A stretch of 64,000 nt of DNA, from contig CAYRHT010000002.1 of assembly GCA_964424195.1 (NCBI GenBank), positions 8,458-72,457 on the forward strand, read 5' to 3'. Positions 3,001 through 27,335 of the stretch are shown piece by piece. How positions within the stretch are numbered: the stretch's first letter is position 1; each line of letters begins with the position of its first letter. The position numbers and the translations under genes are program-made. The notes under the pieces are model-generated. The model ran no database searches, had not been told where the DNA came from, and saw only the letters and a program-made list of their open reading frames with translations. The stretch comes from an uncultured Gammaproteobacteria bacterium (lineage in GTDB: Bacteria > Patescibacteriota > Patescibacteriia > UBA1558 > S5-K13).

Positions 3001-6000
3001 TTCCATGTTGGTTCATCTACACCTTCAAGTATAGCTTCAGCTAATTATTATAACTCTGCTTATGTAAGCGGAGATTTAGAAGTAGATGGAACTACTTATT
3101 TAGGAGGTTCTTTAAATATGGGTACTGGAGGTAATATAAATAATCTTCAAACTATAGCTTATAGTGAGGGTGATTCAACTGTATCACTTACTTCTGATTT
3201 TAATATTAAATTAGGTGATCCAGATGAAGCTAATAATGGAACTATTCTTTTTGTAGATGACGATAACGAAGAAGTATCAATAACAAAGAAATTAGTAGTA
3301 ACTGGTAATTTAGAGCTTGGTGGAAATGCAACTGTTACAGCTAGTACAGGAGATTTTACAACCGAAGGTAGATTATTAATTTCAGATGGTAGTGCAGCTT
3401 CTCCGTCTATAGCTTTTAAAGATGATTCTAATACTGGAATTTATCAATTATCAGATAATTCTATGGCTTTAGCCGTTAACGGATCAAGTGCGCTTTATTT
3501 AAATACAACTGCTATGCAAACTAAAGATCATTTACCATTTGTAAATAAATTTTATGATTTAGGCTCTTCTACTAGATATTGGCAAGAGTCTTATGCAGAG
3601 TTTTTATATCTTAATTCTGATTTAGATGCTAGTACTGCTAGTCCAGCCGTAGCTTTTGGTGATGGAGATACTGGTTTTTATGAAATAGCGGATGACCAAC
3701 TTTCTTTAGTAGCGGGAGCAAATGAATTAATAAGATTAGGTTATGATACTATTTCTTCTTCAACTCTAAGTGTGAATGAATTTTATATTAGTGGTTTAGT
3801 AGATTTAGATGTTTCTACAACTACTTATGCGATGAATATTTATAATACTTCTACTGATACTAGTGCTGGCGGATTATATGTTCAGAACGATGGTGGAGGA
3901 CTAGCTTTAGGAGTTTATGGAAATTCTGCTGAATCATTGTTTACTGTAGACTCTAATCAAACAAATATTTATAATCCAGTTAATTTTGAATCTACAGGTG
4001 ATGTTGGTATTGGTTCAGACTTAGTTTTCACAGGAACACCTGGTCACATTATTGGTGAAGGTTCCTTATATTTACAAACAGATTCTTCTTGGGAAGATTT
4101 AAATCTATATTTAAACGCATCTAATGATGGTCGAGTTTATGTTCAGGATATTTTAGAAGTTACTAGTACTACTTTAGCTATGACTGGAACTAGTACTTTT
4201 AGTGGAGGCAATGTTGGTATTGGTACTACTACTCCTTATGCTGCTTTATCCTTAGTTGATACCAACGCTGCAGTGAGTGATAATGTATTTGTAATTTCAA
4301 CTAGTACTAGTGGAGCTATATTCTCAGTTGACGGAGCTGGTAATTATTATTATGACGGTTCTGGTTCTACTCCAGCTGCTGATTATGCTGAGTACTATTA
4401 TACTAACGATACTGATTTAGAATCTGGTGAAGCAGTTTGTATTGATGTGACTCATAATAATGCAGTAGGTCGATGTATGAATGGAGCAGATGGAAATTTA
4501 ATGGGTATTGTTTCTACAGATCCTTCCATAGTTGGTAATGCTAAGCCTGGTTATGCTGAAGATGATCATTATGTAATTGTTGGTATGCTTGGACAAGTAC
4601 CAACTAGAGTTTCTAATGAAAATGGTGCAATTAGACCAGGTGATTCTTTAACTTCAGCTTCTTCAACTCCGGGATATGTAATGCGAGCTGATGCTGGAAA
4701 TCCAACTGTTGGTGTAGCTTTAGAAACATTAGAAGACGAAACTGGAGTTATTAATGTTTTAATTTCTCGAAGGAACAAGAGTTTAACTGTGGCTAAGGTA
4801 GAAGAAGTAATTATTGATCGAATAGCTCAGATGGAAATAGAGGATGAAGTAGCTATTTTAGTAGAACAGGCTGTTGGGGATTACAATTTTGCTTCAACTA
4901 CTGAGGCATTAATTGGAACAGAGATTGCTATCTTACAAGCCCAACTCGATGCTCAAGCTGAAGTTATTAATATATTACAAGGAGATGACTATACTAGTGA
5001 TGATCTTTGGGGTTTTGTAGGAGATGCTTTTGAAATTGGTGATTTTTATCAAGTAGATATTCAGGAAGCTAATTCCTATGCTATTGGTAATTTTAATGAT
5101 ATTTATGTAACCGGAGAAAATTCTGCTGGTTATGGAATTTATAATAAACTTTCTACTGCTAATGATGGTTTAGCTCAAACTGTATTTGGAAATTATAATC
5201 AATTACAGACTTCAAATCGAGAGGACACTGCTTTTGGTTCTTATATAGTCAGTTCAGTTGATACCTTAGATGGTATGCAAGTAGGACAGTATATTAATTT
5301 AGATAATTCTAATACTGAAAATTGGGCAATTATGGTTGATGCTGGTCAGACTTTCTTTGGTGATAATGTTTTAATAGGAGAACAAATGCCAGTGCTTTCT
5401 TGGTCAGATTTTAATTTAAATGGTGATGATTTATTTGTCCAAGGTGATGTAGGAATTGCTGGTAATTTATATATTGATGGTGAATTAAATGTTTTAGGAG
5501 ATGTTCAGTTCGTGGGAAATATTGAAGTAGGGGAGAATATTATTTTAGGTGGAATGCTTTTAAGCTCTAATTCTGGTTATGCAGAGATGTTAGATATTCT
5601 AGAAGATGATTATGAGTTTGGTGATCTAGTGGTAATGAATACTTCTTCGACTACTCGAGCTCGTTTAGCTGATCAAGCTAATAGTGAAATTATCTTAGGT
5701 GTCATTGCTCAAAACCCAGCTATTATAACTTCTAAAGATAAAGAGAATGGTCAGGCTGTAGTTATGTCGGGAACTACCTTGGTAAATGTTACAGCTGCTA
5801 ATGGCTTAATTAAAAAAGGTGATTATTTAACTACTGCTAATGAAATTGGTAAGGCTCAAAAAGTAACTAAAGACGGAGCTGGAATTTTAGGTATTGCTTT
5901 AGAAGACATGGAAGTGCCAACCTCTACTCCAAGTACCTTTGCTAATGATCAAATTTTAGTTCGAGTTCAATTAGGAAATTATTTTACTAGTGGAGCTAGA

Positions 6001-8682
6001 GTAGTAGAAGTTGCTAAATCTGGTGGAGATTTTTCTACTCTCACTGGTGCTTTAAGTTCAATTACTAATAACTCAGCCAAGAATAAATATATAGTTAAAG
6101 TTAAGGCTGGAGAATATGAAGATACTATTACTATGAAACCTTATGTTGATATTATTTGTGAGAATAAAGAAACAGTAAGTATTATTGCTGAAGATGCCCC
6201 AGTAGTAATTGGAGCTAATGATTCTCGAATTGAAGGATGTCATTTAATAGCTAGTGGTACTAATCTAACAGAACCAATTATAGTATCTATCAATAGTACT
6301 TCACCAATTATTTATAATAATATTTTAACTGCTTCAACTACCGAGTTAGCAATTGGTATTAATATTGAGAATACATTAGCTAGTTCTAAATTAGAACCTT
6401 TAATTTCTAATAATGAGTTTAGTTCTAATTTATATCAAGGAATTGTCAATTTTAGTGATGAAACAGAAGCTATTGTGATGAATAATAAATTAGATCAAGT
6501 GACTGGTCAGGCTTTGGCTAGTCTAGGTGGAATTATTAATTCTAATAATAATATATTTAGTGGACAATTGATTGATATTTATGTTAGCGAAGAGGCTAAA
6601 TTATATAGTCAAAATGATACTTATAATACTTTAGAAAATTCAGGAATATTTGTAGATGCTACTTTGAAGGGTGGAGTATTTAATAATTATATTGTTGATG
6701 GTTGGATAGTGTCTCAAGACCAAACAGAAGAAGATTCTTTTGCTATTAATATTAGTGCTGGTGAAGGATATTTAGATGGTATTCATGTGATGACTAGAGA
6801 ATTTAATGATATTCAATTATATGCTACTTCTACTAACTATATTTATATTAATGATGCCGGAGAGATAGAGATTAGTGTTAATAAAGAAGATACTCAGGGA
6901 ATATTATTAGCTGAAGCTCAAACAGATATAGAAAGTATTTTAGTTTTAAATAATGATCGGCAAAATGAAATTGTTGTTGCTAAACAAGGGGGAGACTTTA
7001 CTAGTATTAATGAAGCTTTAAATGCTATTAAATTGAATTCACCTAATAATAGATGGTTAATTACGGTGAAGCCTGGTATTTATAATGAACAAATTACTTT
7101 AAAACCTTATGTTGATTTAGTTGGTTCTGGTCAGAACAATACTAAAGTTACTCAAATCAATAATCCAGTTATTATTGGTGCTAGTCAGTCTTCAATTCAG
7201 AATATTGGTTTAGCATTATATGGTGATGAAATCGGTCAAGAAGTTGTTTCTTTAAATATTGTTAATGAGTTTGGTGAAGCTAATTCTATTGTTGACGGAA
7301 TTTATAAATTTGAAATTTCAGAAGTGTCAGTTGATTATAATAAATTAGAGAGTAGTGAAGTAGCTACTTCATCAGCTATTAAATTAGTGTCAGCTTTAGA
7401 TAATAATCAAGAGTTTGGAATAGCTTCTAGTACTGCTGAATTAGTAGATTTAAGATTAGATAGAGTTGAAATTAAGAATACTGATATTGGTTTAGATTGG
7501 AGTTTAATAGATGATAATTTTGTAGTTGCTACTGACAATTCAGCTACTAGTACAACAGAAATATTGATCAGCCAAGTAGATATTAGTAATTCAAGGTTTA
7601 ATACTAAATTATCAGATATTAGAACTCAAGCATTTATTTTAGAAGATTTTGAATTAAGTAATTATAGTGTAGCTTCTTCTACAACTTCTACTATTCAAGT
7701 TGATTACAATACTTTAATTACTTCTTCATATAATATGTATCTTGGTAGTGGAATAAGTTTTGATTTAGCTTTAGGTACTAAACTATCTACAAGTCATGAT
7801 AATTATGGTCAAGTTTTAGGCAATAATGCTTTAGTATTAGATGACTTTAATAGACAAATTGCTCAGTATGATGATTTATGGCTCTTACAAAATAATGATA
7901 AAGATGTAATTTCAGTTAATGGAGCTGGAAATATATTAATGAGTCCACAAAATGTAATGGTTGATAGTTTTGCTCTAAGTAATGATATTAGTTCTACTAC
8001 TTTGACTGTTTTAGCTATTGAAGATCACGAGGCTGCTCGTTTCTATGGTCCTTTAGTCATTGGTCCAGCTTTAACAGCAAGTTCTACAGCAACTAGTACC
8101 GGTCAAATAGCTGGTATTTCAGAATTAAGATTTTTAAGTGATGCTCAAATTTCTGCTACAGCAAGTTCCACTATTAAAGTCGGTCAAGCTGGTAATACTG
8201 TTGATTTAAATGTGGCCGGAGTAAACTATATTTTACCTGATTCAGCTATTAGAGATACAATTACAGCTTATGTTGATAGTCCTCGAAAAGGAGTTCATGT
8301 TTGGGGCAAGGGAACAAATTCTTGGCAACCTCCAGAAGATATTAAGATTTTGAAATTAAAAGCTCAGTATCATTGTGGTGAAGGTGGTAGTATCAACTTA
8401 AAATTAGAAGATGAGAATAACAGAGTTTTAGCTGAATTGAATGGTCAGAAATGTTCTAATAATTATATTAATATTGAGACAGATGATTTAGATATTAATT
8501 TGGATGAGAATGATGGAATGCATATTGTAATTTCTGAAGTTAAAGGTGGAAAACAAAAAGCTATTTATGGAAAAGAAGGTGAGGTTATTGGTAGAGGAGA
8601 GATTCAAGGAGCTCCTTCTCAATTAACTATGACCTTAGAGTATGTTTATAAAAGAGAATTAGAAAATGGAGGTATTAAATAA
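1..8682 (+). CDS. Giant secreted/cell-surface repeat protein, 5'-partial (more than 2,893 aa). It has LVIVD-type beta-propeller repeats, tail-fibre-like GIGTTxP repeats and two pectin-lyase-fold (pectinesterase-like) modules.
   Basis: Frame 1 is open from nt 1 through the annotated ATG at 139, so the gene begins upstream of the window. There are about 9 blades of the form 'YAYV...LEIVDISDPxNPT' in residues 100-450. There is a reiterated ~125-aa module with 'GNVGIGTTTPxxxLxV' in residues 500-1400. Residues ~1955-2010 ('AKSGGDFSTLTGAL..YIVKVKAGEYED') and ~2275-2330 ('AKQGGDFTSINEAL..WLITVKPGIYNE') resemble the start of pectinesterase/pectate-lyase beta-helices. Confidence 0.8.
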   Translation, partial: GNSNSGENRELRVYGYLTADTASRYTSLKVDDTNDEFLITVDPSILMGAAIQLADAAGATEFRVRDSAGTEVFSVDSDGDVEANKVGINVAPSATLDIQGDAGQTNDLFAIASSTGQEYLAMSNLGKTVITGKVVNPNHAGVIEDGDGGADLEEAYTVAVSGDYAYVGNMGGESIEIVDISDPTNPTHLSNLADGGVSAPYFTSTVSVVVSGDYLYVLSLDGNGTLSIVDISNPANPTLNGYIKTGSGGANFFNSDQLYIYKNFAYITYSSGLAIINVSDPYNPTWADSIDDGEGGAQLEGAYGLYVTNDYAYIGADDTNAFEIVDVSDPYNPVHAGYLADGGAGAPYIDNTYSVYVSGNYAYLVDYTSGALEIIDISDPTSPTHVGSLLDGGGSAPYLNGAASIKVAGSYAYISSVSGALEIIDISDPANPTHVGSLLDGDGGVMLGGSYNLDISGNYVYMVAMDDSALNIIDISGVEISNTEIGSAKIDSLQVMNRAQFNQELYVRDSLSVGGGAGFGGAVVINMTTTSTEMGISALSVTATTSDSLVSFNQKGSGDIFTLQDAGTNVFTVADGGNVDISGNVGISTSTPWAHLSVESQGSLPGLVVSDTSNNTDFIVASDGRVGMGTASLGENNLYVYNSEANVTFGDENNSINFNIIDEWPKIIGDSSSVGDWALGVYDSLSEEHVSLSTTNDYALLFGTNDNERMRLDTSGYLGIATTTPWGQLSVEGQGSSPSFVISDTSNNTDLVVTNTGFVGIGKSNPSYTLDVYAGSGVRFHDDAPDDSYLTFAEELGDHWPNIKGYSNGNADWILGVYEEFSEEMSLLTHTNDPLHLGTNNTQRLTIEAGGDIGIGTTNPQSMFDVNNLFHVSSTGVVSASSTLTAYATTTLATDLRVDTDTLVVDSFNDRVGIGNASPSSDLHIGSYGVGNTTFRMESSGNGYFGISNYSGETRFTSGAAATSDNIMTFYTSDAGSEGEVMRIDPSGYLGIGTSSPTMLFHVGSSTPSSIASANYYNSAYVSGDLEVDGTTYLGGSLNMGTGGNINNLQTIAYSEGDSTVSLTSDFNIKLGDPDEANNGTILFVDDDNEEVSITKKLVVTGNLELGGNATVTASTGDFTTEGRLLISDGSAASPSIAFKDDSNTGIYQLSDNSMALAVNGSSALYLNTTAMQTKDHLPFVNKFYDLGSSTRYWQESYAEFLYLNSDLDASTASPAVAFGDGDTGFYEIADDQLSLVAGANELIRLGYDTISSSTLSVNEFYISGLVDLDVSTTTYAMNIYNTSTDTSAGGLYVQNDGGGLALGVYGNSAESLFTVDSNQTNIYNPVNFESTGDVGIGSDLVFTGTPGHIIGEGSLYLQTDSSWEDLNLYLNASNDGRVYVQDILEVTSTTLAMTGTSTFSGGNVGIGTTTPYAALSLVDTNAAVSDNVFVISTSTSGAIFSVDGAGNYYYDGSGSTPAADYAEYYYTNDTDLESGEAVCIDVTHNNAVGRCMNGADGNLMGIVSTDPSIVGNAKPGYAEDDHYVIVGMLGQVPTRVSNENGAIRPGDSLTSASSTPGYVMRADAGNPTVGVALETLEDETGVINVLISRRNKSLTVAKVEEVIIDRIAQMEIEDEVAILVEQAVGDYNFASTTEALIGTEIAILQAQLDAQAEVINILQGDDYTSDDLWGFVGDAFEIGDFYQVDIQEANSYAIGNFNDIYVTGENSAGYGIYNKLSTANDGLAQTVFGNYNQLQTSNREDTAFGSYIVSSVDTLDGMQVGQYINLDNSNTENWAIMVDAGQTFFGDNVLIGEQMPVLSWSDFNLNGDDLFVQGDVGIAGNLYIDGELNVLGDVQFVGNIEVGENIILGGMLLSSNSGYAEMLDILEDDYEFGDLVVMNTSSTTRARLADQANSEIILGVIAQNPAIITSKDKENGQAVVMSGTTLVNVTAANGLIKKGDYLTTANEIGKAQKVTKDGAGILGIALEDMEVPTSTPSTFANDQILVRVQLGNYFTSGARVVEVAKSGGDFSTLTGALSSITNNSAKNKYIVKVKAGEYEDTITMKPYVDIICENKETVSIIAEDAPVVIGANDSRIEGCHLIASGTNLTEPIIVSINSTSPIIYNNILTASTTELAIGINIENTLASSKLEPLISNNEFSSNLYQGIVNFSDETEAIVMNNKLDQVTGQALASLGGIINSNNNIFSGQLIDIYVSEEAKLYSQNDTYNTLENSGIFVDATLKGGVFNNYIVDGWIVSQDQTEEDSFAINISAGEGYLDGIHVMTREFNDIQLYATSTNYIYINDAGEIEISVNKEDTQGILLAEAQTDIESILVLNNDRQNEIVVAKQGGDFTSINEALNAIKLNSPNNRWLITVKPGIYNEQITLKPYVDLVGSGQNNTKVTQINNPVIIGASQSSIQNIGLALYGDEIGQEVVSLNIVNEFGEANSIVDGIYKFEISEVSVDYNKLESSEVATSSAIKLVSALDNNQEFGIASSTAELVDLRLDRVEIKNTDIGLDWSLIDDNFVVATDNSATSTTEILISQVDISNSRFNTKLSDIRTQAFILEDFELSNYSVASSTTSTIQVDYNTLITSSYNMYLGSGISFDLALGTKLSTSHDNYGQVLGNNALVLDDFNRQIAQYDDLWLLQNNDKDVISVNGAGNILMSPQNVMVDSFALSNDISSTTLTVLAIEDHEAARFYGPLVIGPALTASSTATSTGQIAGISELRFLSDAQISATASSTIKVGQAGNTVDLNVAGVNYILPDSAIRDTITAYVDSPRKGVHVWGKGTNSWQPPEDIKILKLKAQYHCGEGGSINLKLEDENNRVLAELNGQKCSNNYINIETDDLDINLDENDGMHIVISEVKGGKQKAIYGKEGEVIGRGEIQGAPSQLTMTLEYVYKRELENGGIK
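1105..1323 (+). repeat. Two near-identical 72-nt copies, 147 nt apart, inside the giant gene (propeller-blade repeat).
   Basis: 'agcggtgctttagaaataatagacatttctgatcca..cctactcatgttggtagtttattagatgg' occurs at 1105-1176 and 1252-1323 with only about 5 mismatches. Confidence 0.8.
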
Positions 8683-8684
8683 TT

Positions 8685-11183
8685 ATGAATAGATTAAAAC
8701 AATTAAAATATAAATACTATATTGGTGTTATTATAGCTCTGACTATTGTTTTTAGTTCTATTAATTTTGTTCAAGCTGCTACTCCTACTTATGAAAATGC
8801 ACCAACAGCCTCTGAAGTTTTAATAGTTTATAATTCAGCTTATACTACTGATTCAGATACTGATGGTACTCAGGATAGTCAAGAAATAGCTGAATATTAT
8901 GTTACAAATAGACCAGGAGTTAATATTACTTCCATTTCTACTGTTACTAGTGAAACTATTTCTCGAACTAATTATAATTCTCAAATTAGAGATCCTTTAG
9001 AAGCTTATTTAACTGCTCAAGGTTTAACAGATTCTATTAAATTTATAGTTTTAGTCAAAGGTATTCCTTTAAAGATAGTTGCTACTAATGGTGGTTCTTA
9101 TGGTTCTACAGATTATTCTTCAGTAGATTCAGCAGTTTGTTTATTATACGAAGGAGATTATGTTATTAATTGGCGACACCCTAATCCTTATTATAACGCT
9201 GATCCTAGTTATACTAAGGCTTTCCGTTTTGATACTGATCACTTTACTAATGCTTCGGGAGTTACTTTAAATTATTTGGTAACTCGAATAGATGGATATT
9301 CAGTATCAAGTATGGAAGCGATAGTAGATAGAGGAGTGGGAGCTGATACTTCTGGAAATGGTTATTGGGTGATAGATGATAATTTAAAAACTTATGATCA
9401 AATGAGTACGGCTTATACTTATTTAAGTGATTTAAGTAGAAATGTTAATCCTGATCCTTGGTCAGACACTTCTTCTTATATTACAACTAATGCTAGTGGT
9501 TCTGTTATGGGTTACACTTCTCATGGAATTCATGCTTCTATGGGTGATGGTTATGTTTCTAATAGTCCAGTTAATGCTAACTATTTAGACTTTACATTAT
9601 TGAATGGAGCAGTATTCTCTACTTATGAATCATATAATGGATATGGTTTTACTGCTCCTACTCAATCAACTCACGGGCAAGTAGCAGAGTGGATAGAAAT
9701 TGGTGGTTCTGGTGGAGTTGGTAATGTTTATGAACCTTGGGCTTCTACTATCGCTCATGAAGAAATTTTTATGCCAGAATATACTATTGGTTATACTTGG
9801 GCAGAAGCAGCTTATATGTCTTTAGCTTATATGGATTTTGTTTCAGTGGTAATTGGTGATCCTTTAATGACTATTTCAGAAATTATTGCTCCAGCATCAG
9901 TAACAGCGACTAACGCCGTGAATGGAGATAATCAAGTAGCTTTTTCTTGGACTAATCCTGTTGACGCTGATTTTGTAGGAGTAAAAGTAGTTCGAAAGAC
10001 TGGATCTTATCCAGGACATAGTGCTGATGGAACTGTTATCTACAATGGAAGTAATGAATCATATATTGATACAGATGTTGTGAATAATACTACTTATTAT
10101 TACGCAATCTTTGCCTATGATGAAGTACCTAATTATTCTAGCTTAGGAGCTGGTTCCAAAGATAATGCTACACCATCTTCAGATACTACAGCACCAGATT
10201 CAGTAACTAGTATATTTGCTAATCCCGGAAATCATCAAGTAATTTTAACTTGGACTAATCCAACTAACGCTGATTTTGTGGGAGCGAGAGTAATGCGGAA
10301 AGAAGGTTCCTATTCTAGTACTTATGATGATGGAACTTTGGTTTATGATGGATCTAGTAATTCTTGTGTTAGTTCTGGTTTAACAAATGATGTAACTTAT
10401 TATTATACTATTTTTGCTTATGATGGAACTCCTAATTATGCTACTCCGGGAGCAGGAGCTAAGACAACATCTGCTCCTTATTTAACAGAATCAGGTGCAG
10501 AAATTGATGTTCAGCCTCCGGGATCTATTTACAGTTTTTCAGCAATTCCTGGGAATGCTCAAGTTTCTTTATCTTGGACAAATCCTGATGATAGCGACTT
10601 TTCTTTAGTTAAAGTCTTACGAAGAACAGATTATTATCCTCAAAGTTTTTCTAATGGTATTTTAATAACAAGTGTTAGTAGCACTACTACTTCATATACT
10701 GATACTGATGTAGTAAATGATACAACTTATTTCTATACTGCTTTTGCTTGTGATGTTTCTTTAAATTGTTCAGTGCTAACTTCTAATGCTCAAGATTATG
10801 CTACTCCTTGTGATGGTTCTTGTTCAGATACTAGTCCAGAAACAGCTCCTACTTATTCCCTATCTGAACCAGATATTTCTCCGCCAGTAGCTATTACAAA
10901 TTTTGACGCAGTTGCTGGTGATGAGAGTGCTAGTTTAACTTGGACAAATCCATTTGGAGATGATGATTGGGTTGGTACAATAGTAGTTAGAAAAACAGAT
11001 TCCTATCCTAATAGTTATACTGATGGTACTCAGATATATAACGGTCAAAATGGAGGATTTTATACTGATACAGGTTTAAGTAATGGAACTACTTATTATT
11101 ATGGAGCCTTTGCGTATGATACGGCTGGTAATTATACTGCTTCTAGTACTGACTCTAGTGATTTAGCAACACCAAGTGAATAA
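8685..11183 (+). CDS. Secreted protein with five fibronectin-type-III-like repeats and an N-terminal signal peptide.
   Basis: The leader 'MNRLKQLKYKYYIGVIIALTIVFSSINFVQA' ends in an AxA-like site. The unit 'W(T/S)NPxDxDFVGxxVxRKxGSYP...YxDTxxxNxTTYYYxxFAYD' is repeated five times. The start lies 2 nt after the stop of the giant gene. Confidence 0.75.
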   Translation: MNRLKQLKYKYYIGVIIALTIVFSSINFVQAATPTYENAPTASEVLIVYNSAYTTDSDTDGTQDSQEIAEYYVTNRPGVNITSISTVTSETISRTNYNSQIRDPLEAYLTAQGLTDSIKFIVLVKGIPLKIVATNGGSYGSTDYSSVDSAVCLLYEGDYVINWRHPNPYYNADPSYTKAFRFDTDHFTNASGVTLNYLVTRIDGYSVSSMEAIVDRGVGADTSGNGYWVIDDNLKTYDQMSTAYTYLSDLSRNVNPDPWSDTSSYITTNASGSVMGYTSHGIHASMGDGYVSNSPVNANYLDFTLLNGAVFSTYESYNGYGFTAPTQSTHGQVAEWIEIGGSGGVGNVYEPWASTIAHEEIFMPEYTIGYTWAEAAYMSLAYMDFVSVVIGDPLMTISEIIAPASVTATNAVNGDNQVAFSWTNPVDADFVGVKVVRKTGSYPGHSADGTVIYNGSNESYIDTDVVNNTTYYYAIFAYDEVPNYSSLGAGSKDNATPSSDTTAPDSVTSIFANPGNHQVILTWTNPTNADFVGARVMRKEGSYSSTYDDGTLVYDGSSNSCVSSGLTNDVTYYYTIFAYDGTPNYATPGAGAKTTSAPYLTESGAEIDVQPPGSIYSFSAIPGNAQVSLSWTNPDDSDFSLVKVLRRTDYYPQSFSNGILITSVSSTTTSYTDTDVVNDTTYFYTAFACDVSLNCSVLTSNAQDYATPCDGSCSDTSPETAPTYSLSEPDISPPVAITNFDAVAGDESASLTWTNPFGDDDWVGTIVVRKTDSYPNSYTDGTQIYNGQNGGFYTDTGLSNGTTYYYGAFAYDTAGNYTASSTDSSDLATPSE

Positions 11184-11185
11184 AT

Positions 11186-12163
11186 ATGAAATTAAACAAA
11201 CAAAAAATAGTTCTATTGATAATTTTAATGCTAATAGTAGTAATCTCTTTATTTTTTATATTCAAGAAAGAAAAATATTTTATACTATATATAGAAGGTT
11301 TAGATCAGGGAGTTTTAAAGCAATATTCAACAGAAGATTTACCAAATTTGAAGTCTTTGTTCAGTGCCGATTTAAATTCAGAAATTGCTTTAAACAAGGA
11401 GTCAAGTTTTTTAACAATTTTATCAGGGGAGTATAAATATGGATCTTTTGATCAGAAGGATCCAAATAAATATATTGTTAGTAAAAAAAAGGTAGATAAT
11501 TTAGGATTATTTTATCAAACAAATCTATATCAAAATGTTAGAGAAAATAATTTATCTTTTAGATTTTTAGAAAGAATAGAAAAAATTTTAAAGCTGGATA
11601 AATTTAAAGAGGATATAATTGTTTATTTAACTAATTTGGAAAATAATGATTTAAATTCTTATCAAGAGATTGATGGCTTAGTAGCTCAAATAGAAAAGAA
11701 AATCGGTTTTAACACTAGATTATTAATTATTACTCCTAATTATGAAGAAGAAAATAGTTTTAGAGAAATTAATGAAAACTTAATAGATAAAGGATTTTTA
11801 ACTTGTCCCGATAACTTTCAAGACTTGTCAGAATGTGATTTAGCTAATTCTTTTGCTTATAGTCCTGCTCCAGGTGAAGTATATATTAACAAAAAAGGTC
11901 GAGAAGAGTTGGGTCGAGTAGATTGGGATTATGAAGGAGTCATTGAAGATACAGCTTATGTTTTAACTTCTGAAATAGAAGAGAAAGATTTAAGGATGTA
12001 TAAGAGTAGAAATTATTTTCAACAAAAAGATGTACCAGAAATATTTGTTTTTGAAAAACAAAGGGAAGAAAAGGGTATAATGCTATCGAACAAAAAATTT
12101 ACTCAGGATAAATATGATTATTTAGAAATTTTAAACTTAATTAACTTAATTAAAAATGATTAA
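11186..12163 (+). CDS. Hypothetical membrane-anchored protein of the surface-protein operon.
   Basis: N-terminal 'MKLNKQK' followed by a hydrophobic helix. It is tightly coupled to its neighbours, lying 2 nt after the previous stop and overlapping the next gene by 8 nt. There is a weak, unverified resemblance to the N-terminal core of the alkaline-phosphatase superfamily. Confidence 0.5.
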   Translation: MKLNKQKIVLLIILMLIVVISLFFIFKKEKYFILYIEGLDQGVLKQYSTEDLPNLKSLFSADLNSEIALNKESSFLTILSGEYKYGSFDQKDPNKYIVSKKKVDNLGLFYQTNLYQNVRENNLSFRFLERIEKILKLDKFKEDIIVYLTNLENNDLNSYQEIDGLVAQIEKKIGFNTRLLIITPNYEEENSFREINENLIDKGFLTCPDNFQDLSECDLANSFAYSPAPGEVYINKKGREELGRVDWDYEGVIEDTAYVLTSEIEEKDLRMYKSRNYFQQKDVPEIFVFEKQREEKGIMLSNKKFTQDKYDYLEILNLINLIKND

Positions 12164-15100
12164 TAAATTAAAACAATTAGATTATCGTTATTATATTGGA
12201 ATAATAGTTATTGCTATTGCAATAGTTTTTGGTTTAATTTTTATTTTACGAGCTCCAAAGTCAGCTGAAGCTGAATGGTTTAATGATGGCTGGTATTATC
12301 GAAAATCTATTCCAGTCACTAATAATACTACAACAGAAATGAACGTTTATGTTTCTGTTACCATTGATACTTCAGATACTACTAAATTTCAAACAGATTG
12401 TGATGATGTGCGTTTTACTAATAGTGCTGGTAATAGATTTCCTTATTATCTTGTTTCAGGTTGTGGTACAGACACAACAGTAATTCATGTTTATTTTAAT
12501 AACCTTGATGCTGGTTTACAAAATATTTATTATTATTATGGTAATTCATCTGTAGAACAAGGTTCTGTTGGTTCAAATTTTTCTACGGTAGCTTCTGATT
12601 ATACAATTGGAACTATTACTAGTGAGGAACAATCTGAAGTACCAATAGCTTATTGGTCATTTGATGAAGGTTATGGAACTATTGCTCATGATAATACTTC
12701 TAGTAAAAATCATGGGACTTTAACAAATATGACCACCACTGGTATTTCTACAGCTTGGGTAGATGGTAAGTTCGGAAAAGGATTGAAGTTCGGTGATCAT
12801 AATTATGATAATTTAGCATTAGAAGAGGAGATAGGTTTTAGTGATGGAGATGAACATACTTTATCTTTTTGGATAAAGAATGATGGTACAAATACTTACA
12901 TCACTGTAGCTGGGAAAGAAACTGAGAATGGAAATTCAATTTATATTATTGATAATAGTGTAAATTATATATTTTATTTTCGAAGTGCAACTCAAAAACA
13001 ATTAGTGTCAGGAGTGGATACAACAGTTTTGTTTGATAAGAATTGGCATCAAGTTGTAATGACTGTGAATTCTAGTAAGCTATGTTCAGTTTATTTTGAT
13101 GGTAAATTACAGGGATCAGCAACTTTGACTACTTCAGATATGATTTATAGTTCTATTGGTTCAGGAATAAATGCTTTTCAAGTTGATGGCATAATGGACG
13201 AAGTTAAAATATATAATTATGTCTTATCAGCTTCGCAAGTTAAAAAATCTTATTCTTCTAGGTCTAAGAATTTTACAGCTATGAATTTATCTAAGTCAAA
13301 AAAAGATGCTCAGAATAAAAGAAATGTGGGTCTAGTTGGTTTCTGGAAAATGGATGAGGATTCTTGGGATAGTACAGCCAATGAAGTAATTGATTATTCA
13401 GGACTAGGAAATCATGGTACCAGTTATGCTGATGCTACTACAACTTCTAGTGCTAGATATAATAGAGCGGGAGAATTTGATGGAACGGGAGATTATATTA
13501 GTTGTGGTAGTGATAGTAGTTTAGATATGGGTGACGGCAGTTTAACTATTGGAACATGGATTAAAGCAGATAATGTGGATAATTATATGGGTATTATTAA
13601 TAAGAGTGCTTTGGGAGGTAGTCTTGGTTGGGGCATGGGAATAACTAATGGCAAAGTTAGATGTGAAATCCATGATGGAAGTAGAGCTTGGACTGAATAT
13701 GATACAACAATTGAAATCGATACTTGGTATTATATTATGGCTGTATTTGATAGAGGGGATGATAAAATAAAAGTTTATATTAACGGTAATAAAGAAAGTA
13801 CGGAGCTAGATATAACAGGTAAGGGATCAATAACTGGTTCTAACTGTTACATAGGTAGTCTTAATACTTCTGCTTGGATTTTCGATGGACAAGTTGATCA
13901 TGTTAAAGTTTGGAAACGAGCATTGACTACTAAAGAAATATCAGAAGAATATGTTACTGGACCAGCTCCAGTTGCTTATTGGTCCATGGATCAGATTGAC
14001 GGTACTACGGTTGTTGATCAGTCGGGAATGGGTAATGATTGTACTATGGATGGAGGAGTAACTAAAAATAATAATTGGAAGCCTGGGAAAGTAGGTCAGG
14101 CTTTATCATTTAAAGACGATGCTGATGCTCATCTTGATTGTGGTAATGATTCTAGTTTAGATATTACTGGAGCTATTACCATAGAATCTTGGGTTAAACC
14201 AGATTCATATGATTTTGCTTATCCTATGTTTCTTTCTAAGGCAGGATCATATTATAGAACTGGTTTAGCTGCTGCAGGTGATGGAAGAGTATTTTTTAGA
14301 GTGAGAGTTGGTGGTGCGTATAAAACAGCCTATTCCTCTTCAGACGTCCCTTTGAATGAATGGACTCATGTTATAGGAACTTATGATGGAGAATATATGA
14401 GAGTTTATGTAAATGGTATTTTAAATGGAACTCCCTTAGCTCTATCAGGTAATATTGAGACTAATGTTGCTTCATTAATAGTAGGTTCAGCTTCTTTTGA
14501 TGGAGATTTAGATGAAATTAAACTTTATAATTATGCTCTTACTCCATATCAAATAGCTCAAGCATATGGTAATGGAGCTCCACTTACTTATTGGTCATTT
14601 GATGAGGGACAAGGAACTACTGCTTATGATAGTTTAGGGAGTAAAAATCATGGAACTTTAACTAATATGACTACTACCGGAGTTTCTTCAGCTTGGGTAG
14701 ATGGAAAGTTTGGAAAGGGTTTGAGATTTGATGGTAGTGATGATTATATTGATGCAGGTGATTTTTTAGATAATGGTGAAACAACGGTTAGTTTATGGTT
14801 TAGAAGTAGTTATCAAGGAACACATAATGGTCTAATAGATTTTGCTGGATCTAGTGGTATTGGACATTTTGATTTTAATCATTCTGGAGACGATAGACCT
14901 ATTTTATATTTAGATTCTACTAATTTTCGTTATTTTGATGCTTCAGCCACAGATTATATGGATGGAGAATGGCATTATTTAGTACTATATATACCAGGGT
15001 CAGACATGGATGATGTTTCAAGTGCAACATTAAGTATTGATAATGTTAATATACCATCATCTAGCACATCTGCCGCCGGAACTCAGGATACTTGGAATGA

Positions 15101-17228
15101 TTTATATATTGGTAAAACTAATTATGGTTCTTTTAATGGTGATCTAGATGAAGTTAAAATATATAATTATCAACTTACTCCTTTTGATATTGAAAAAGAG
15201 TTTGTCTCTTCTAGAGGAAAGAAACAAACTGGGCTTAATTTATCTAAATCAGAACAAGATAATGAGAGTGCTCAAGTCGAAGGTTTAGTAGCTCATTGGA
15301 AAATGGATGAAGCTTCTTGGGATGGTACAGCTGATGAGGTAATAGATTATTCAGGCTTAGGAAATCATGGAGTGTCAGCAGATGATGCTCATACTACAAC
15401 TACTGCTAGGTATAATAGAGCGGGGGGATTTGATGGAACAGATGATAGGATTACGATTGCCAATGATGATTCTTTAAATCCATCATCGGCAATTACTATC
15501 TCAGCTTGGTTTTATGCTAATTCTTTTGATGGTGATAGTATTAGTGGCAATTGTATTTTATCAAAGGGTGCTAGTACTAATGGTTATTGGTTAGTTGTGG
15601 GTAGTGGAAAAGCTCATTTTAAATGGGGAAGTTATTTAACTAATGATCTTGATTCAGATACCTTTAATCCAACTACTGGAGAATGGCATCATATTTTAAT
15701 ATCTTATGATGGAAATCATGGTATTTTTTATTATGATGGAAATGAAGTTGGAGAAGGAGATATGACTAAGGGTGATAACAATACTAGTTCTATGTCTCTG
15801 GGTTATTATATTAGTCCAGTCCCAAATCATTTTGATGGAGCTTTAGATAATGTGAAGATTTGGAATCGTGCTTTGTCTCCTACAGAAGCAGTAAATGAAT
15901 ATCATAAAATATTATCTCCAGTTGGTTATTGGTCAATGGATAATATTGATGGAATTACAGTTACTGATGATTCAGGAATGGGAAATGATTGTACTATGGA
16001 TGGAGAATTAAACAAGGCTGATGATTGGAAGCCAGGAAAAGTAGGGCAATCTCTATTTTTTGAAAATTGTTATAATGGAGGTCAATGTGAAGGGCATCAC
16101 TTAGAATGTGGTAATGATTCTAGTTTAGATATCGAAGGGGCAATTACTGTTGAGCAATGGGTAAAACCAAACTCCTTTACTTATTATCCAATCTTTATGA
16201 GAAAACCAAGCGATCTTTATCGGATTGGTTTAAGAGGTACAAATCCTACAGAAAATTTAGGAGATGGTCGGGTATATTGGAGAATTAAGATTGGTGGAGT
16301 AGCTAAAGCTAAGAGTGGTGCTATTTATATTCCTTCAAATGAGTGGAGTCATGTAGTTGGGACTTATGATGGAGAATATATGAGGCTTTATATAAATGGT
16401 GTGTTAGACGGTGCACCTTATGCTGTGACTGGGGATATAGATGTTTCTACTTATGATTTGATAGTAGGCGCTTATAATCTTTCCGGTAATTATACTTTTG
16501 ATGGTGACATGGATGAAGTTAAACTTTATAATTATGCTCTTACTTCTCATCAAGTAGCTCAAGCATATAATAATGGTAAACCGATTGCTCATTGGACATT
16601 TAATGAAGGAGAAGGTGATGTAGTAAAAAATAAAATAAATAATACTTATCATGGAGATATAGTTAATGCTACTTATGTTTCTGGTAAATCTGATACTGCT
16701 TTAAATTTTGATGGAGATGGAGATTATATTGATTTTGATAATACTGAAGATGATACTTTTTATCCTACTACTACTTATGAATCAGTAACTATTGCTACTT
16801 GGATGAAATTAAATACAGCCAGTCAAGAATCAGCTGTGGTTGGAAGATTTGATTCAGTTGGATCTAATCATTGGTATAATTATGGTTCGGGTATAAAATA
16901 TGTTAATGGAGCTGTGAAAGTGATGGGAATGTCTAATGCAAATAATCCTTTATTAAGTTATGATTTAACAGATACAAGTTCTTGGCATCATGTTGTAGCT
17001 ATTGTGAATACAACAGATGGTAAGTTATATGTAGACGGTATTTTGAGAGATAGCGGAGATTTAAGTTCAAATGGCGGTTATGATTTTGCTATTGGAGCTC
17101 AAACTAATGCTGGAACTAGTTTTTACTTTGATGGGCAATTGGATGAAGTAAAAATATGGAATTATGGCTTAAGTCCATTAGATGTTCAAAATGATTATAA
17201 TCTAGGGAAAGGGGTGTTTTTTAAGTAG
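12156..17228 (+). CDS. Secreted giant protein made of seven concanavalin-A-like/LamG (Laminin_G_3-type) lectin domains.
   Basis: The leader 'MINKLKQLDYRYYIGIIVIAIAIVFGLIFILRAPKSAEA' is followed by repeated LamG signatures ('YWSFDEG', 'NHGTLTNMTTTG', 'WVDGKFGKGL', 'DGxLDEVK(I/L)YNYxLT'). A three-domain supermodule occurs twice. Confidence 0.75.
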   Translation: MINKLKQLDYRYYIGIIVIAIAIVFGLIFILRAPKSAEAEWFNDGWYYRKSIPVTNNTTTEMNVYVSVTIDTSDTTKFQTDCDDVRFTNSAGNRFPYYLVSGCGTDTTVIHVYFNNLDAGLQNIYYYYGNSSVEQGSVGSNFSTVASDYTIGTITSEEQSEVPIAYWSFDEGYGTIAHDNTSSKNHGTLTNMTTTGISTAWVDGKFGKGLKFGDHNYDNLALEEEIGFSDGDEHTLSFWIKNDGTNTYITVAGKETENGNSIYIIDNSVNYIFYFRSATQKQLVSGVDTTVLFDKNWHQVVMTVNSSKLCSVYFDGKLQGSATLTTSDMIYSSIGSGINAFQVDGIMDEVKIYNYVLSASQVKKSYSSRSKNFTAMNLSKSKKDAQNKRNVGLVGFWKMDEDSWDSTANEVIDYSGLGNHGTSYADATTTSSARYNRAGEFDGTGDYISCGSDSSLDMGDGSLTIGTWIKADNVDNYMGIINKSALGGSLGWGMGITNGKVRCEIHDGSRAWTEYDTTIEIDTWYYIMAVFDRGDDKIKVYINGNKESTELDITGKGSITGSNCYIGSLNTSAWIFDGQVDHVKVWKRALTTKEISEEYVTGPAPVAYWSMDQIDGTTVVDQSGMGNDCTMDGGVTKNNNWKPGKVGQALSFKDDADAHLDCGNDSSLDITGAITIESWVKPDSYDFAYPMFLSKAGSYYRTGLAAAGDGRVFFRVRVGGAYKTAYSSSDVPLNEWTHVIGTYDGEYMRVYVNGILNGTPLALSGNIETNVASLIVGSASFDGDLDEIKLYNYALTPYQIAQAYGNGAPLTYWSFDEGQGTTAYDSLGSKNHGTLTNMTTTGVSSAWVDGKFGKGLRFDGSDDYIDAGDFLDNGETTVSLWFRSSYQGTHNGLIDFAGSSGIGHFDFNHSGDDRPILYLDSTNFRYFDASATDYMDGEWHYLVLYIPGSDMDDVSSATLSIDNVNIPSSSTSAAGTQDTWNDLYIGKTNYGSFNGDLDEVKIYNYQLTPFDIEKEFVSSRGKKQTGLNLSKSEQDNESAQVEGLVAHWKMDEASWDGTADEVIDYSGLGNHGVSADDAHTTTTARYNRAGGFDGTDDRITIANDDSLNPSSAITISAWFYANSFDGDSISGNCILSKGASTNGYWLVVGSGKAHFKWGSYLTNDLDSDTFNPTTGEWHHILISYDGNHGIFYYDGNEVGEGDMTKGDNNTSSMSLGYYISPVPNHFDGALDNVKIWNRALSPTEAVNEYHKILSPVGYWSMDNIDGITVTDDSGMGNDCTMDGELNKADDWKPGKVGQSLFFENCYNGGQCEGHHLECGNDSSLDIEGAITVEQWVKPNSFTYYPIFMRKPSDLYRIGLRGTNPTENLGDGRVYWRIKIGGVAKAKSGAIYIPSNEWSHVVGTYDGEYMRLYINGVLDGAPYAVTGDIDVSTYDLIVGAYNLSGNYTFDGDMDEVKLYNYALTSHQVAQAYNNGKPIAHWTFNEGEGDVVKNKINNTYHGDIVNATYVSGKSDTALNFDGDGDYIDFDNTEDDTFYPTTTYESVTIATWMKLNTASQESAVVGRFDSVGSNHWYNYGSGIKYVNGAVKVMGMSNANNPLLSYDLTDTSSWHHVVAIVNTTDGKLYVDGILRDSGDLSSNGGYDFAIGAQTNAGTSFYFDGQLDEVKIWNYGLSPLDVQNDYNLGKGVFFK

Positions 17229-27330: not shown

Positions 27331-27335
27331 AATAT

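What the first reader, a model, noticed from the sequence alone, without database searches (positions are those of the whole stretch)
8685..8777. Conserved unusual N-terminal leader 'M-x-x-LKQL-x-Y-x-YYIG-(I/V)I' shared by two giant surface proteins
The 832-aa protein begins 'MNRLKQLKYKYYIGVIIALTIVFSSINFVQA'. The 1,690-aa protein (12156-12272) begins 'MINKLKQLDYRYYIGIIVIAIAIVFGLIFILRAPKSAEA'. Ordinary Sec n-regions are only loosely basic. A conserved 12-residue motif ahead of the hydrophobic core suggests either a dedicated sorting or secretion tag or a recent common origin of the two leaders. Gene 3 also starts 'MKLNKQK'.
Basis: seen in the sequence. Interest (0 to 1): 0.55.

Follow-up and report, generated by a model that had tools for sequence, protein, structure and literature searches.

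The report
Conserved leader of giant surface proteins
The shared N-terminal motif is real: it is the conserved export leader of one family of giant DUF2341/LamG surface proteins in a small-genome uncultured bacterium. The 832-aa protein most likely picked it up second-hand through a gene-fusion event, so it is not shown to be a general sorting tag.

Summary
Window 8685-8777 and 12156-12272 encode leaders sharing LKQLxY[KR]YYIG[VI]I. The back-translated pattern hits only these two sites (0 expected). The mature proteins are unrelated: TIGR03790+FN3 versus DUF2341+7 LamG.

A profile search of 1.84 billion representative proteins found 17 hits. Fifteen are DUF2341/LamG giants or fragments, one is an unrelated 711-aa protein, and one is spurious. 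Every DUF2341 gene examined in related contigs (about 17) carries the leader.

Conservation falls along the protein: motif 78% identity, next 23 residues 60%, first 120 mature residues 44%, remainder about 34%. Motif-to-AxA spacing is fixed. Synonymous sites vary freely, so selection acts on the peptide.

The 832-aa copy is secondary. None of 120 TIGR03790 homologues has it. The syntenic orthologue (79% identity) has an ordinary signal peptide and sits just downstream of a leader-bearing DUF2341/LamG gene that the window lacks. A deletion-fusion is the simplest account. The 711-aa protein also has a homologue without the leader.

No sortase, signal peptidase or pilus gene lies in the window. 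No Pfam or NCBIfam signal model matches.

Verdict: a lineage-specific, selectively maintained Sec-type leader tied to one family. A dedicated sorting role is possible but unshown.

The parts
8685..8777 (+). Leader (predicted signal peptide) of the 832-aa protein. It has a basic n-region, the motif, a short h-region IGVIIALTIVF, and a c-region SSINFVQA with a predicted signal peptidase I site VQA|A.
   Evidence: Translation. The mature N-terminus A[AT]TPTYE is conserved in orthologues directly after their own AxA sites. The leader is only 59% identical at nucleotide level to the orthologue's signal peptide, against 84% for the adjacent mature region.
8694..8729 (+). Motif LKQLKYKYYIGV in the 832-aa protein
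8778..11183 (+). Mature part of the 832-aa protein: TIGR03790 domain (aa 62-382) followed by four FN3-like repeats
   Evidence: NCBIfam TIGR03790 scores 125 bits against a cut-off of 67. Pfam gives DUF4959 and NDNF FN3-like hits.
11186..12163 (+). 325-aa membrane-anchored protein of unknown family. It sits between the TIGR03790 gene and the DUF2341/LamG gene in conserved synteny, and its stop overlaps the start of the next gene by 8 nt.
   Evidence: No Pfam or NCBIfam family. Orthologues at the same position are L016 7638-8870 (32% identity) and L035 5930-6913 (53% identity). It lacks the motif.
12156..12272 (+). Leader of the 1690-aa DUF2341/LamG protein: n-region, motif, an 18-residue h-region, then RAPKSAEA with a predicted signal peptidase I site AEA|EW
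   Evidence: Translation. Motif-to-AEA spacing is fixed at 23 residues in 16 family members. AlphaFold2 predicts a helix at residues 10-32, a disordered linker at 34-42, and a beta-sandwich from residue 46.
12168..12203 (+). Motif LKQLDYRYYIGI in the 1690-aa protein (the family consensus form)
12273..17228 (+). Mature part of the 1690-aa protein: DUF2341 N-domain plus seven Laminin_G_3 (LamG) domains. The C-terminus is ...GKGVFFK.
   Evidence: Pfam Laminin_G_3 E=1.6e-149 with 7 stretches; DUF2341 at aa 81-140. C-terminal tail.
1..8682 (+). 3' part of the giant upstream gene (FG-GAP, LVIVD and pectinesterase-like domains). Its stop lies 2 nt before the 832-aa gene. Its N-terminus is outside the window.
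   Evidence: Frame 1 is open from base 1. Pfam hits. Gene lengths of 3294-4830 aa in different assemblies. The 3' end aligns at 70% nucleotide identity with the giant gene of the relative L037.
17332..17808 (+). 158-aa single-pass membrane protein conserved directly downstream of the DUF2341/LamG gene(s) in relatives
   Evidence: 82% identity to L035 15866-16378; also found in L029, L033 and L039.

Best explanation
The two segments encode Sec-type N-terminal export leaders that carry a lineage-specific, strongly conserved element at the junction of the n-region and the h-region. The consensus is [LF]-K-[QK]-[LI]-D-Y-[KR]-Y-Y-I-G-I.

This leader is the hallmark N-terminus of a multi-copy, fast-evolving family of 1650-1950-aa surface proteins (DUF2341 N-domain plus LamG repeats). 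The genes often lie in tandem. The hosts are a narrow clade of low-GC bacteria whose longest assembled contigs are about 0.44-0.95 Mb. They are probably Patescibacteria (CPR), but that is an inference.

How it is inferred to work:
- The Lys/Arg residues stay on the cytoplasmic side.
- The Tyr-rich segment and the invariant Gly form the cytoplasmic start of the membrane helix.
- An 18-residue hydrophobic core spans the membrane.
- A Pro-containing c-region presents a conserved A/T/V-E-A site exactly 23 residues after the motif, for signal peptidase I.

The motif is kept by selection on the peptide, more strongly than on the mature protein. It therefore probably does something beyond generic Sec targeting, such as setting the targeting route, the export kinetics or the placement of a very large cargo. 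That extra role is not shown.

The copy on the 832-aa TIGR03790/FN3 protein is secondary. A leader-bearing DUF2341/LamG gene that sits between the giant ORF1-type gene and the TIGR03790 gene in a close relative is missing from the window. Its leader now replaces the ordinary signal peptide of the TIGR03790 gene up to about the cleavage site. This is leader capture by deletion-fusion.
For: Shown by tool results:
- The motif occurs at exactly two N-termini in the window, with 0 expected by chance.
- The mature parts are unrelated.
- A metagenome scan with the degenerate pattern gave 14 loci, 10 of them true leader-bearing loci. Every complete gene hit by that pattern continues ...ILRAPKSAEAEW[FW]ND.W.YR, the start of DUF2341.
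- An exhaustive profile search of 1.84e9 representatives gave 17 hits at E<=1e-3. Fifteen are DUF2341/LamG giants or fragments, one is an unrelated 711-aa protein, and one is spurious.
- Paralogues found by adjacency rather than by motif also carry the leader: L029 3964, L029 16525, L032 4294 and L036 6965. A LamG-only neighbour without DUF2341 (L035 6906-9911) does not.
- Identity falls along the protein: 78% for the motif, 60% for the next 23 aa, 44% for the first 120 mature aa, and about 34% for the rest. The spacing is fixed.
- Synonymous codons vary freely at invariant residues: Tyr TAT/TAC 10:3, 8:5 and 7:6; Gly GGT/GGA/GGC/GGG 3:7:2:1.
- AlphaFold2 predicts a helix at residues 10-32, a flexible linker at 34-42 and a beta-sandwich from residue 46.
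- None of 120 TIGR03790 homologues has the motif; all have ordinary signal peptides.
- The relative L035/L037 (IleRS 89% aa identity, same gene order) has the order giant, then P0029 (leader + DUF2341/LamG), then an 841-aa orthologue of the 832-aa protein. That orthologue is 79% identical and has the ordinary signal peptide MNNKFKLQRKIFRLSLIMLGFLLFGNILKTQA|ATPTYE.
- Nucleotide identity between the window gene and that orthologue is 84% in the mature part and 59% in the leader. The window's ORF1 3' end aligns with the relative's giant gene right up to the leader start.

Inferred: the membrane topology, cleavage at AxA, the deletion-fusion as the mechanism of capture, and any role beyond Sec targeting.
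Against: - The family set was largely found through the leader itself, so the conservation figures are biased upward. Only four paralogues were found independently of the motif.
- No signal-peptide predictor was available, so cleavage is inferred from the -3/-1 rule only.
- The crossover point of the proposed fusion cannot be placed precisely.
- The 832-aa leader is only 53% identical at nucleotide level to the relative's P0029 leader, so the donor was a diverged or different paralogue, or the leader changed after fusion.
- The direction of change (deletion in the window's lineage versus insertion in the relative) rests on parsimony: 120 of 120 other TIGR03790 proteins have ordinary signal peptides.
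- The taxonomic placement was not tested.
Confidence: 0.7

Rival explanations
1. Dedicated sorting tag. The LDYRYYIG element is recognised by a specific factor or route (a chaperone, a specialised translocon partner, or a site-specific secretion zone). It can be moved between cargoes, like YSIRK/GXXS or KxYKxGKxW in Gram-positive bacteria.
For: The motif is more conserved than the h-region and the mature protein, with free synonymous change. It is retained with all invariant residues (K, Y, Y, Y, G) on two unrelated cargoes. It tolerates a 10-21-residue in-frame insertion between the motif and the h-region in intact genes, which suggests a separable module. Two leader-bearing families also share a C-terminal ...x-F-K end.
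Against: The leader is found on only three cargo families. Two of these look like accidental captures, because homologues of both cargoes have ordinary N-termini. There is no candidate partner gene in the window, and no consistently co-located gene in relatives other than selfish endonuclease or toxin-antitoxin genes. Only 17 clusters were found among 1.84e9 representatives.
Confidence: 0.15
2. Uncleaved signal-anchor. The leader stays attached as an N-terminal transmembrane helix that tethers the giant protein to the cell membrane. The motif and the conserved helix residues serve membrane positioning or helix-helix contacts.
For: The h-region is long (18-20 residues) and unusually conserved for a cleaved peptide: 60% identity, fixed length, conserved mid-helix Gly. 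The giants have no C-terminal membrane anchor or LPXTG. The 711-aa protein P0026 has no AxA site after its helix (...FIFLLNKPEPE). AlphaFold2 predicts a 23-residue helix.
Against: The [ATV]-E-A site with Pro at -6 is conserved 23 residues after the motif in all 16 aligned family members. In the 832-aa protein the leader ends in a canonical VQA|A site, at exactly the position where its orthologues' signal peptides end and conservation of the mature protein begins. One orphan leader ORF stops exactly after AEA (P0015).
Confidence: 0.3
3. Class III (prepilin-like) signal. A PilD-type peptidase cuts after the invariant Gly. The hydrophobic segment becomes the N-terminal helix of a pilin-like module, making the DUF2341/LamG giants tip adhesins of type IV pili.
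For: An invariant Gly lies immediately before the hydrophobic stretch, preceded by a short, basic, conserved leader. The literature links DUF2341 proteins to type IV pilus-like loci as putative tip adhesins (PMC4858521; PMC11809585).
Against: There is no Glu at +5 and no F/M at +1. The Pfam and NCBIfam libraries, which from memory hold prepilin N-terminal models (N_methyl PF07963, TIGR02532), gave no match to the leaders. A Pro and a disordered linker follow the helix after about 20 residues, and the beta-sandwich starts at residue 46, so there is no pilin-type long helix packed on a head domain. No pilus genes lie in the window. No canonical G-F-T-L-I-E prepilin was seen in about 400 kb of related loci, but that is uninformative.
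Confidence: 0.07
4. Recent duplication or gene conversion between the two neighbouring genes of the window, with no functional meaning.
For: The two genes lie 3.5 kb apart in one cluster. Their leaders align over 31 residues at 58% aa identity.
Against: The two leaders are only 70% identical at nucleotide level and differ at synonymous sites (TAC/TAT, GGT/GGA, ATT/ATA). The same motif is kept in more than 20 diverged genes from other genomes. The position of the 832-aa gene's leader matches that of a separate DUF2341/LamG gene (P0029) in the relative, not the 1690-aa gene.
Confidence: 0.04
5. Nucleotide-level element (a regulatory RNA, a translation-initiation signal, or a recombination or homing site) that only appears as a conserved peptide.
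For: Orphan leader fragments occur next to GIY-YIG, DUF559 and AbiEii genes and GC-rich hairpins in relatives. The leader region is therefore a recurrent rearrangement breakpoint.
Against: Third-codon positions vary freely while the amino acids are invariant. Leader nucleotide identity is far lower than peptide identity.
Confidence: 0.02

Closest known systems
YSIRK/GXXS signal peptides of Gram-positive surface proteins (e.g. staphylococcal protein A; PMC5962339, PMC7644249)
   Same: A conserved aromatic/basic motif with a conserved Gly sits at the n-region/h-region boundary of a Sec signal peptide. It occurs on large surface proteins and is more conserved than a generic signal peptide needs to be.
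   Different: The motif sequence is different. The Pfam and NCBIfam scans gave no match; from memory those libraries hold YSIRK signal models. There is no LPXTG anchor. No septal-secretion data exist. The motif here is confined to essentially one protein family in one narrow lineage.
KxYKxGKxW signal peptides of serine-rich repeat adhesins, and the ESPR extension of autotransporters (recalled from memory; no match in the Pfam and NCBIfam scans, which from memory hold both models)
   Same: These are extended or specially patterned N-terminal leaders on very large adhesins. Some family members here also have a 20-34-residue basic extension ahead of the motif.
   Different: There was no match in the library scans. 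No accessory Sec genes or autotransporter beta-domain are seen. The motif here abuts the h-region directly.
Multigene surface-protein families with a conserved leader and a hypervariable mature part (Mycoplasma Vsp/Vlp/Vsa lipoproteins, from memory), and tandem giant genes with signal peptides in small genomes (Apilactobacillus kunkeei Giant1-5, PMC12863079)
   Same: Both show tandem arrays of very large secreted proteins in a reduced genome. The mature regions diverge fast: the 1690-aa protein is 37% identical to its positional counterpart P0022, while flanking genes are 79-89% identical. The leader stays constant, and leader remnants mark rearrangements.
   Different: These are not lipoproteins (no lipobox Cys). 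No evidence of phase-variable switching was found. The A. kunkeei proteins are reported with ordinary Sec/SPI peptides.
Large DUF2341 proteins linked to type IV pilus-like loci, and giant Patescibacteria proteins with DUF2341 (PMC4858521, PMC11809585)
   Same: The cargo is the same: an N-terminal DUF2341 domain on very large extracellular proteins of small-genome organisms.
   Different: Those papers, as far as they were read, do not describe a conserved leader. No pilus genes lie in this window.

Membership tests
General Sec / signal peptidase I signal peptide | Positively charged n-region, hydrophobic h-region, and a c-region with small residues at -3 and -1 | tested here: met
   The 832-aa leader has K/R in the n-region, the h-region IGVIIALTIVF, and VQA|A. 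The family leader has K/K/R in the n-region, an 18-residue h-region, Pro at -6, and [ATV]-E-A in all 16 aligned members. This was read from the sequence only.
General Sec / signal peptidase I signal peptide | Positive call and cleavage-site prediction by a trained predictor (SignalP, DeepTMHMM), or an experimentally determined N-terminus | not testable with these tools
   No predictor was available. AlphaFold2 gives only a helix at residues 10-32 followed by a flexible linker.
YSIRK/GXXS signal peptide (recalled accessions PF04650, TIGR01168) | [YF]SIRKxxxGxxS motif matching the family model | tested here: not met
   The Pfam and NCBIfam scans of the leader peptides returned no signal-motif family at E<=10 and E<=1 respectively. 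That these libraries contain the model is recalled from memory, and HMMER filters can drop weak short hits.
YSIRK/GXXS signal peptide (recalled accessions PF04650, TIGR01168) | Cargo carries a C-terminal LPXTG sortase anchor | tested here: not met
   The C-termini are ...GKGVFFK and ...GGLIRFK for the giants and ...DLATPSE for the 832-aa protein. None has LPXTG or a terminal membrane segment.
KxYKxGKxW signal peptide (recalled accessions PF19258, TIGR03715) | KxYKxGKxW motif matching the family model | tested here: not met
   No signal-motif family was returned. Library content is recalled from memory.
ESPR extended signal peptide (recalled accession PF13018) | Match to the ESPR model, with an autotransporter or two-partner-secretion cargo | tested here: not met
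   No signal-motif family was returned. The cargo has no beta-barrel domain.
Class III / prepilin signal (recalled accessions N_methyl PF07963, TIGR02532) | Gly at -1 directly before the hydrophobic segment | tested here: met
   Gly is invariant in 13 of 13 aligned leaders.
Class III / prepilin signal (recalled accessions N_methyl PF07963, TIGR02532) | Glu at +5 (bacterial pilins) and a match to the N_methyl model | tested here: not met
   Position +5 is A, I or G. No signal-motif family was returned.
Class III / prepilin signal (recalled accessions N_methyl PF07963, TIGR02532) | Long N-terminal helix continuing into a pilin head domain | tested here: not met
   The helix ends at residue 32 (before Pro34), a disordered linker follows at 34-42, and the DUF2341 beta-sandwich starts at residue 46 (pLDDT 65-80 in this part).
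Tat signal and lipoprotein signal | Twin-arginine motif, or a lipobox with Cys at +1 | tested here: not met
   Neither window leader has RR or a Cys.
DUF2341 + LamG surface protein family (1690-aa protein) | Pfam DUF2341 and Laminin_G_3 hits above the gathering scores | tested here: met
   DUF2341 scores 34.2 bits against a cut-off of 23.4. Laminin_G_3 scores 493 bits over 7 stretches.
TIGR03790 family (832-aa protein) | NCBIfam TIGR03790 hit above the curated cut-off | tested here: met
   125.4 bits against a cut-off of 67, covering aa 62-382.

The most novel reading that the evidence does not exclude
The LDYRYYIG element is a previously undescribed class of specialised signal-peptide motif in ultra-small (probably CPR/Patescibacteria) bacteria. 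On this reading it is a transferable N-terminal address, possibly working with the shared C-terminal ...x-F-K end. It would route or hold giant adhesin-like proteins at a particular export or attachment site. The captures onto TIGR03790 and P0026-type cargo would have been kept because they place those proteins with the DUF2341/LamG giants.
Probability: 0.15. Interest if true: 0.6.

Novelty: new variant of a known kind. Interest (0 to 1): 0.3.

Why it matters
If the motif has a role beyond generic Sec targeting, it would be the first conserved signal-peptide address described for the giant surface proteins of ultra-small bacteria. How those organisms export and display proteins of 1,700-5,000 residues is not known. 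It would also give a simple sequence handle for listing their adhesin repertoire in metagenomes.

As it stands, the value is more modest. The work yields a clean profile for one fast-evolving surface-protein family. It also gives a well-documented natural case in which an ordinary signal peptide was replaced by a neighbour's leader at about the cleavage site. Together these show that leaders behave as exchangeable modules in these gene clusters.

Tried and rejected
- the same search with 40-45-aa leaders gave only 4 word-index candidates and 1 hit (P0001). The index is too coarse for a 12-residue motif.
- the scan of 185,579 GTDB species representatives with the degenerate pattern gave 6 hits. 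None is an N-terminal leader (they are internal, interrupted by stops, or lack a start), so I count them as chance. The source genome itself is not among those representatives.
- this search was wasted. I queried with the FG-GAP part of ORF1 to recover its full-length N-terminus and got 7361 generic FG-GAP proteins and no orthologue. Whether the 4830-aa ORF1 has the leader remains unknown. No protein over 2000 aa appeared in the leader profile search, which argues weakly that it does not.
- a 10-kb flank is too short to reach the ORF1 start.
- no canonical GFTLIE prepilins were found in the loci held. This is uninformative.
- the window contains none of the GC-rich hairpin islands seen in relatives.
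- Gene 3's 'MKLNKQK' was considered as a degenerate leader and rejected.
- The 6-residue match LKQLDY on the minus strand near window 21940 (E=1.4) is treated as chance.
Full report
OBSERVATION

The window is a low-GC (26-35%) stretch of bacterial chromosome. Window 8685-8777 opens an 832-aa ORF with MNRLKQLKYKYYIGVIIALTIVFSSINFVQA. Window 12156-12272 opens a 1690-aa ORF with MINKLKQLDYRYYIGIIVIAIAIVFGLIFILRAPKSAEA. Both ATG starts have an in-frame stop three codons upstream.

The motif occurs nowhere else in the six reading frames. A degenerate back-translation of K-[QK]-L-x-Y-[KR]-Y-Y-I-G-[VI] hits only these two sites, and none of 100 shuffles gave a hit. BLASTP of the two proteins aligns only residues 1-12.

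The 832-aa protein has a TIGR03790 domain (125 bits against a cut-off of 67) followed by FN3-like repeats. The 1690-aa protein has DUF2341 followed by seven Laminin_G_3 domains.

The two genes belong to a surface-protein cluster. ORF1 is an FG-GAP/LVIVD/pectinesterase-like giant that runs off the left end and is 3294-4830 aa in different assemblies. It is followed by the 832-aa gene, a 325-aa membrane protein, the 1690-aa gene and a 158-aa membrane protein. The rest of the window is housekeeping: IleRS, RecO, TGT, L25, PGK, enolase, iPGM, BacA, Def/Fmt, PriA, several tRNA synthetases, Alr and FtsQ. It contains no signal peptidase, sortase or pilus gene.

The 832-aa protein occurs, identical in sequence, on single contigs of about 953 kb in several metagenome assemblies. 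Together with the gene content this suggests a Patescibacteria/CPR-type organism, but I could not test that.

DISTRIBUTION

No Pfam or NCBIfam model matches the leader peptides. From memory, those libraries include the YSIRK, KxYKxGKxW, ESPR and prepilin N-terminal models.

The degenerate DNA pattern gave only chance-like hits in 185,579 GTDB species representatives. In JGI metagenomes it hit 14 loci. Ten of these carry genuine N-terminal leaders, and every complete gene hit by that pattern continues ...ILRAPKSAEAEW[FW]ND.W.YR, which is the start of a DUF2341 domain.

A leader profile was searched exhaustively against 1.84 billion representative proteins and found 17 proteins at E<=1e-3. Fifteen are DUF2341/LamG giants of 1650-1920 aa or fragments of them. 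One is an unrelated 711-aa repeat protein (P0026). One is spurious.

Fetching the contigs showed tandem arrays of up to three such giants. Paralogues found by adjacency rather than by motif also carry the leader. A LamG-only neighbour without DUF2341 does not. Across all loci held, about 17 distinct DUF2341 genes were examined and all have the leader. The leader is thus coupled to the DUF2341 N-domain.

SELECTION

In 16 family members the 12-residue motif is 78% identical on average. The next 23 residues (h-region and c-region) are 60% identical, the first 120 mature residues 44%, and the remainder about 34%. The distance from the motif to the A/T/V-E-A site is always 23 residues.

K2, Y6, Y8, Y9 and G11 of the motif are invariant in 13 leaders whose DNA is held, yet their codons vary. 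Tyr is TAT/TAC at 10:3, 8:5 and 7:6. Gly is GGT/GGA/GGC/GGG at 3:7:2:1. Leu, Ile, Asp and Arg codons are also mixed.

Conservation therefore acts on the peptide. It is not due to a DNA element and not due to recent gene conversion. One caveat applies: most members were found through the leader, so the gradient is biased upward.

AlphaFold2 on residues 1-240 with 7 homologues gives a helix at 10-32 (pLDDT about 78-80), a disordered linker at 34-42 and a beta-sandwich from residue 46. This fits a signal peptide or anchor followed directly by DUF2341. It does not fit a pilin-like module.

THE 832-AA COPY IS SECONDARY

None of 120 TIGR03790 homologues (23-62% identity) has the motif. All have ordinary signal peptides, and the nearest ones share the mature N-terminus A(A/T)TPTYE immediately after their AxA site.

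A 65%-identical orthologue (L016/L038) starts MLTKLHNFTNLQTKILIICGVFICLFFYNQAQA|TTPTYE.

The decisive comparison is a close relative, contig Ga0675942_0000136 (loci L035/L037). It is 89% identical in IleRS and has the same gene order out to TGT and the histidine-kinase genes. Its order is:
- giant (5521 aa)
- P0029 (leader + DUF2341/LamG, 1656 aa)
- 841-aa orthologue of the 832-aa protein
- 327-aa orthologue of the 325-aa protein
- 1001-aa LamG protein
- P0022 (leader + DUF2341/LamG)
- 170-aa protein, then MerR, then IleRS.

The 841-aa orthologue is 79% identical to the window's 832-aa protein but starts MNNKFKLQRKIFRLSLIMLGFLLFGNILKTQA|ATPTYE. Nucleotide identity between the two genes is 84% over the first 300 nt of the mature part. 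It drops to 59%, close to background for this composition, in the leader.

The window's ORF1 3' end aligns with the relative's giant gene (70% nucleotide identity) right up to the start of the leader-bearing gene.

The simplest reading is a deletion in the window's lineage. It removed the body of a P0029-type gene together with the original TIGR03790 signal peptide. That fused the DUF2341-type leader in frame to the mature TIGR03790 protein at about the cleavage site.

The same applies to P0026. A 48%-identical homologue (L038 895-3426) has an ordinary N-terminus, MKKILKNFNNLQTKIIAIGGVLVL....

These two cases therefore do not show a tag that is widely shared among secreted proteins.

MECHANISM

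Shown:
- a basic n-region
- an invariant Tyr-rich segment and Gly at the start of a predicted helix
- a hydrophobic core
- a Pro-containing c-region with a conserved -3/-1 site.

Inferred:
- Sec-dependent insertion with the Lys/Arg and Tyr cluster at the cytoplasmic interface
- cleavage by signal peptidase I at VQA|A and AEA|E
- an additional, unknown function of the motif that explains why it is conserved more strongly than the mature protein.

By analogy with YSIRK/GXXS (PMC5962339), KxYKxGKxW and ESPR, that function could concern the targeting route, export kinetics or placement of very large cargo.

It is also possible that in the giants the leader is not cleaved and acts as a membrane anchor. 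The core is long and conserved, there is no other anchor, and P0026 has no AxA site. I give this about 0.3.

A prepilin-like reading is suggested by the invariant Gly and by literature linking DUF2341 to pilus-tip adhesins (PMC4858521, PMC11809585). It is disfavoured by the missing Glu at +5, the absence of any model match, and the predicted fold.

VERDICT

The feature is real and is not described in the libraries searched. It belongs to a known kind: signal peptides with a conserved motif on large surface proteins. It is confined to a narrow lineage and essentially one protein family.

The 'common origin' idea is right for the 832-aa protein, through leader capture rather than recent duplication of the neighbouring gene's leader.

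Interest is modest (0.3).

Noticed in passing
L007 1554-1595; L011 about 1900-1690 (minus strand); L032 4063-4182 (= P0015); L029 about 2090-2380; L018 about 120-340; L036 about 6826-6960; L039 1112-1315: Relatives carry orphan leader fragments: a start codon plus part or all of the LDYRYYIG leader, then a stop or unrelated sequence. Several break right after YYIG or right after AEA(EW). They sit just upstream of intact leader-bearing giants, often with GIY-YIG, DUF559 or AbiEii genes or GC-rich hairpins in between. The leader region is a recurrent rearrangement breakpoint. None is present in the window.
   Followed up: partly
L018 1628-1693 (within gene 1547-6820); L029 gene 16525-21744; P0025; P0001; L011 about 1775-1710 (minus strand): Short GC-rich palindromic inserts (GGCC...GGCC-type hairpins of about 30-66 nt) lie in frame inside leaders of otherwise intact genes. 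Examples are YYIG-LRPKGPLGPV-GIV... and AEAEW-PPALRADPPELRSVRSGARLGE-FNDS. They occupy the same two positions: after YYIG and after AEAEW. No such GC-rich islands exist in the window.
   Followed up: partly
window 17208-17225 (C-terminus of the 1690-aa protein); C-termini of P0016-P0029; L013 3742-3756; L038 3412-3426: All DUF2341/LamG giants end in G-[LIV]-x-[FRYH]-F-K (one ends in F-E). The unrelated P0026-family proteins end in ...IFKxNVIFK. Of 202 ORFs of at least 150 aa in the sequences held, 26 end in FK, and 25 of those belong to these two families. This may be a shared C-terminal element, or it may be coincidence.
   Followed up: partly
L038 895-3426 and L038 5136-7988: In one relative, the P0026-type protein and the TIGR03790 orthologue share a different N-terminal pattern (MKKILKNFNNLQTKIIAIGG... 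and MLTKLHNFTNLQTKILIICG...). Sharing of leaders between unrelated neighbouring surface-protein genes may therefore be a general habit of this gene cluster.
   Followed up: no
window 12156-17228 versus L035 10001-15682: The positional counterparts among the DUF2341/LamG giants are only 37% identical. Flanking genes are far more similar: 79% for the TIGR03790 protein, 82% for the 158-aa protein, and 89% for IleRS. The giants evolve, or are replaced, much faster than their neighbours.
   Followed up: partly
window 1-8682 and upstream (L027 1-9998): The upstream giant gene is called at 3294, 3311, 3521, 4629 or 4830 aa in different assemblies that carry an identical 832-aa protein. This points either to repeat-number variation or to assembly collapse in its FG-GAP/LVIVD repeats.
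   Followed up: no
window 11186-12163: The 325-aa membrane protein between the two leader genes has no family match. It has a segment, FILYIEGLDQGVLKQYSTEDLPNLKSLF, that resembles (from memory) the N-terminal metal-site region of alkaline-phosphatase-superfamily enzymes. It is conserved in synteny in relatives.
   Followed up: no
window 26659-28019 and 32392-34590: Two short ORFs encoding HisKA_7TM-only proteins (223 and 227 aa) lie a few kb upstream of a full 7TM histidine kinase (732 aa).
   Followed up: no
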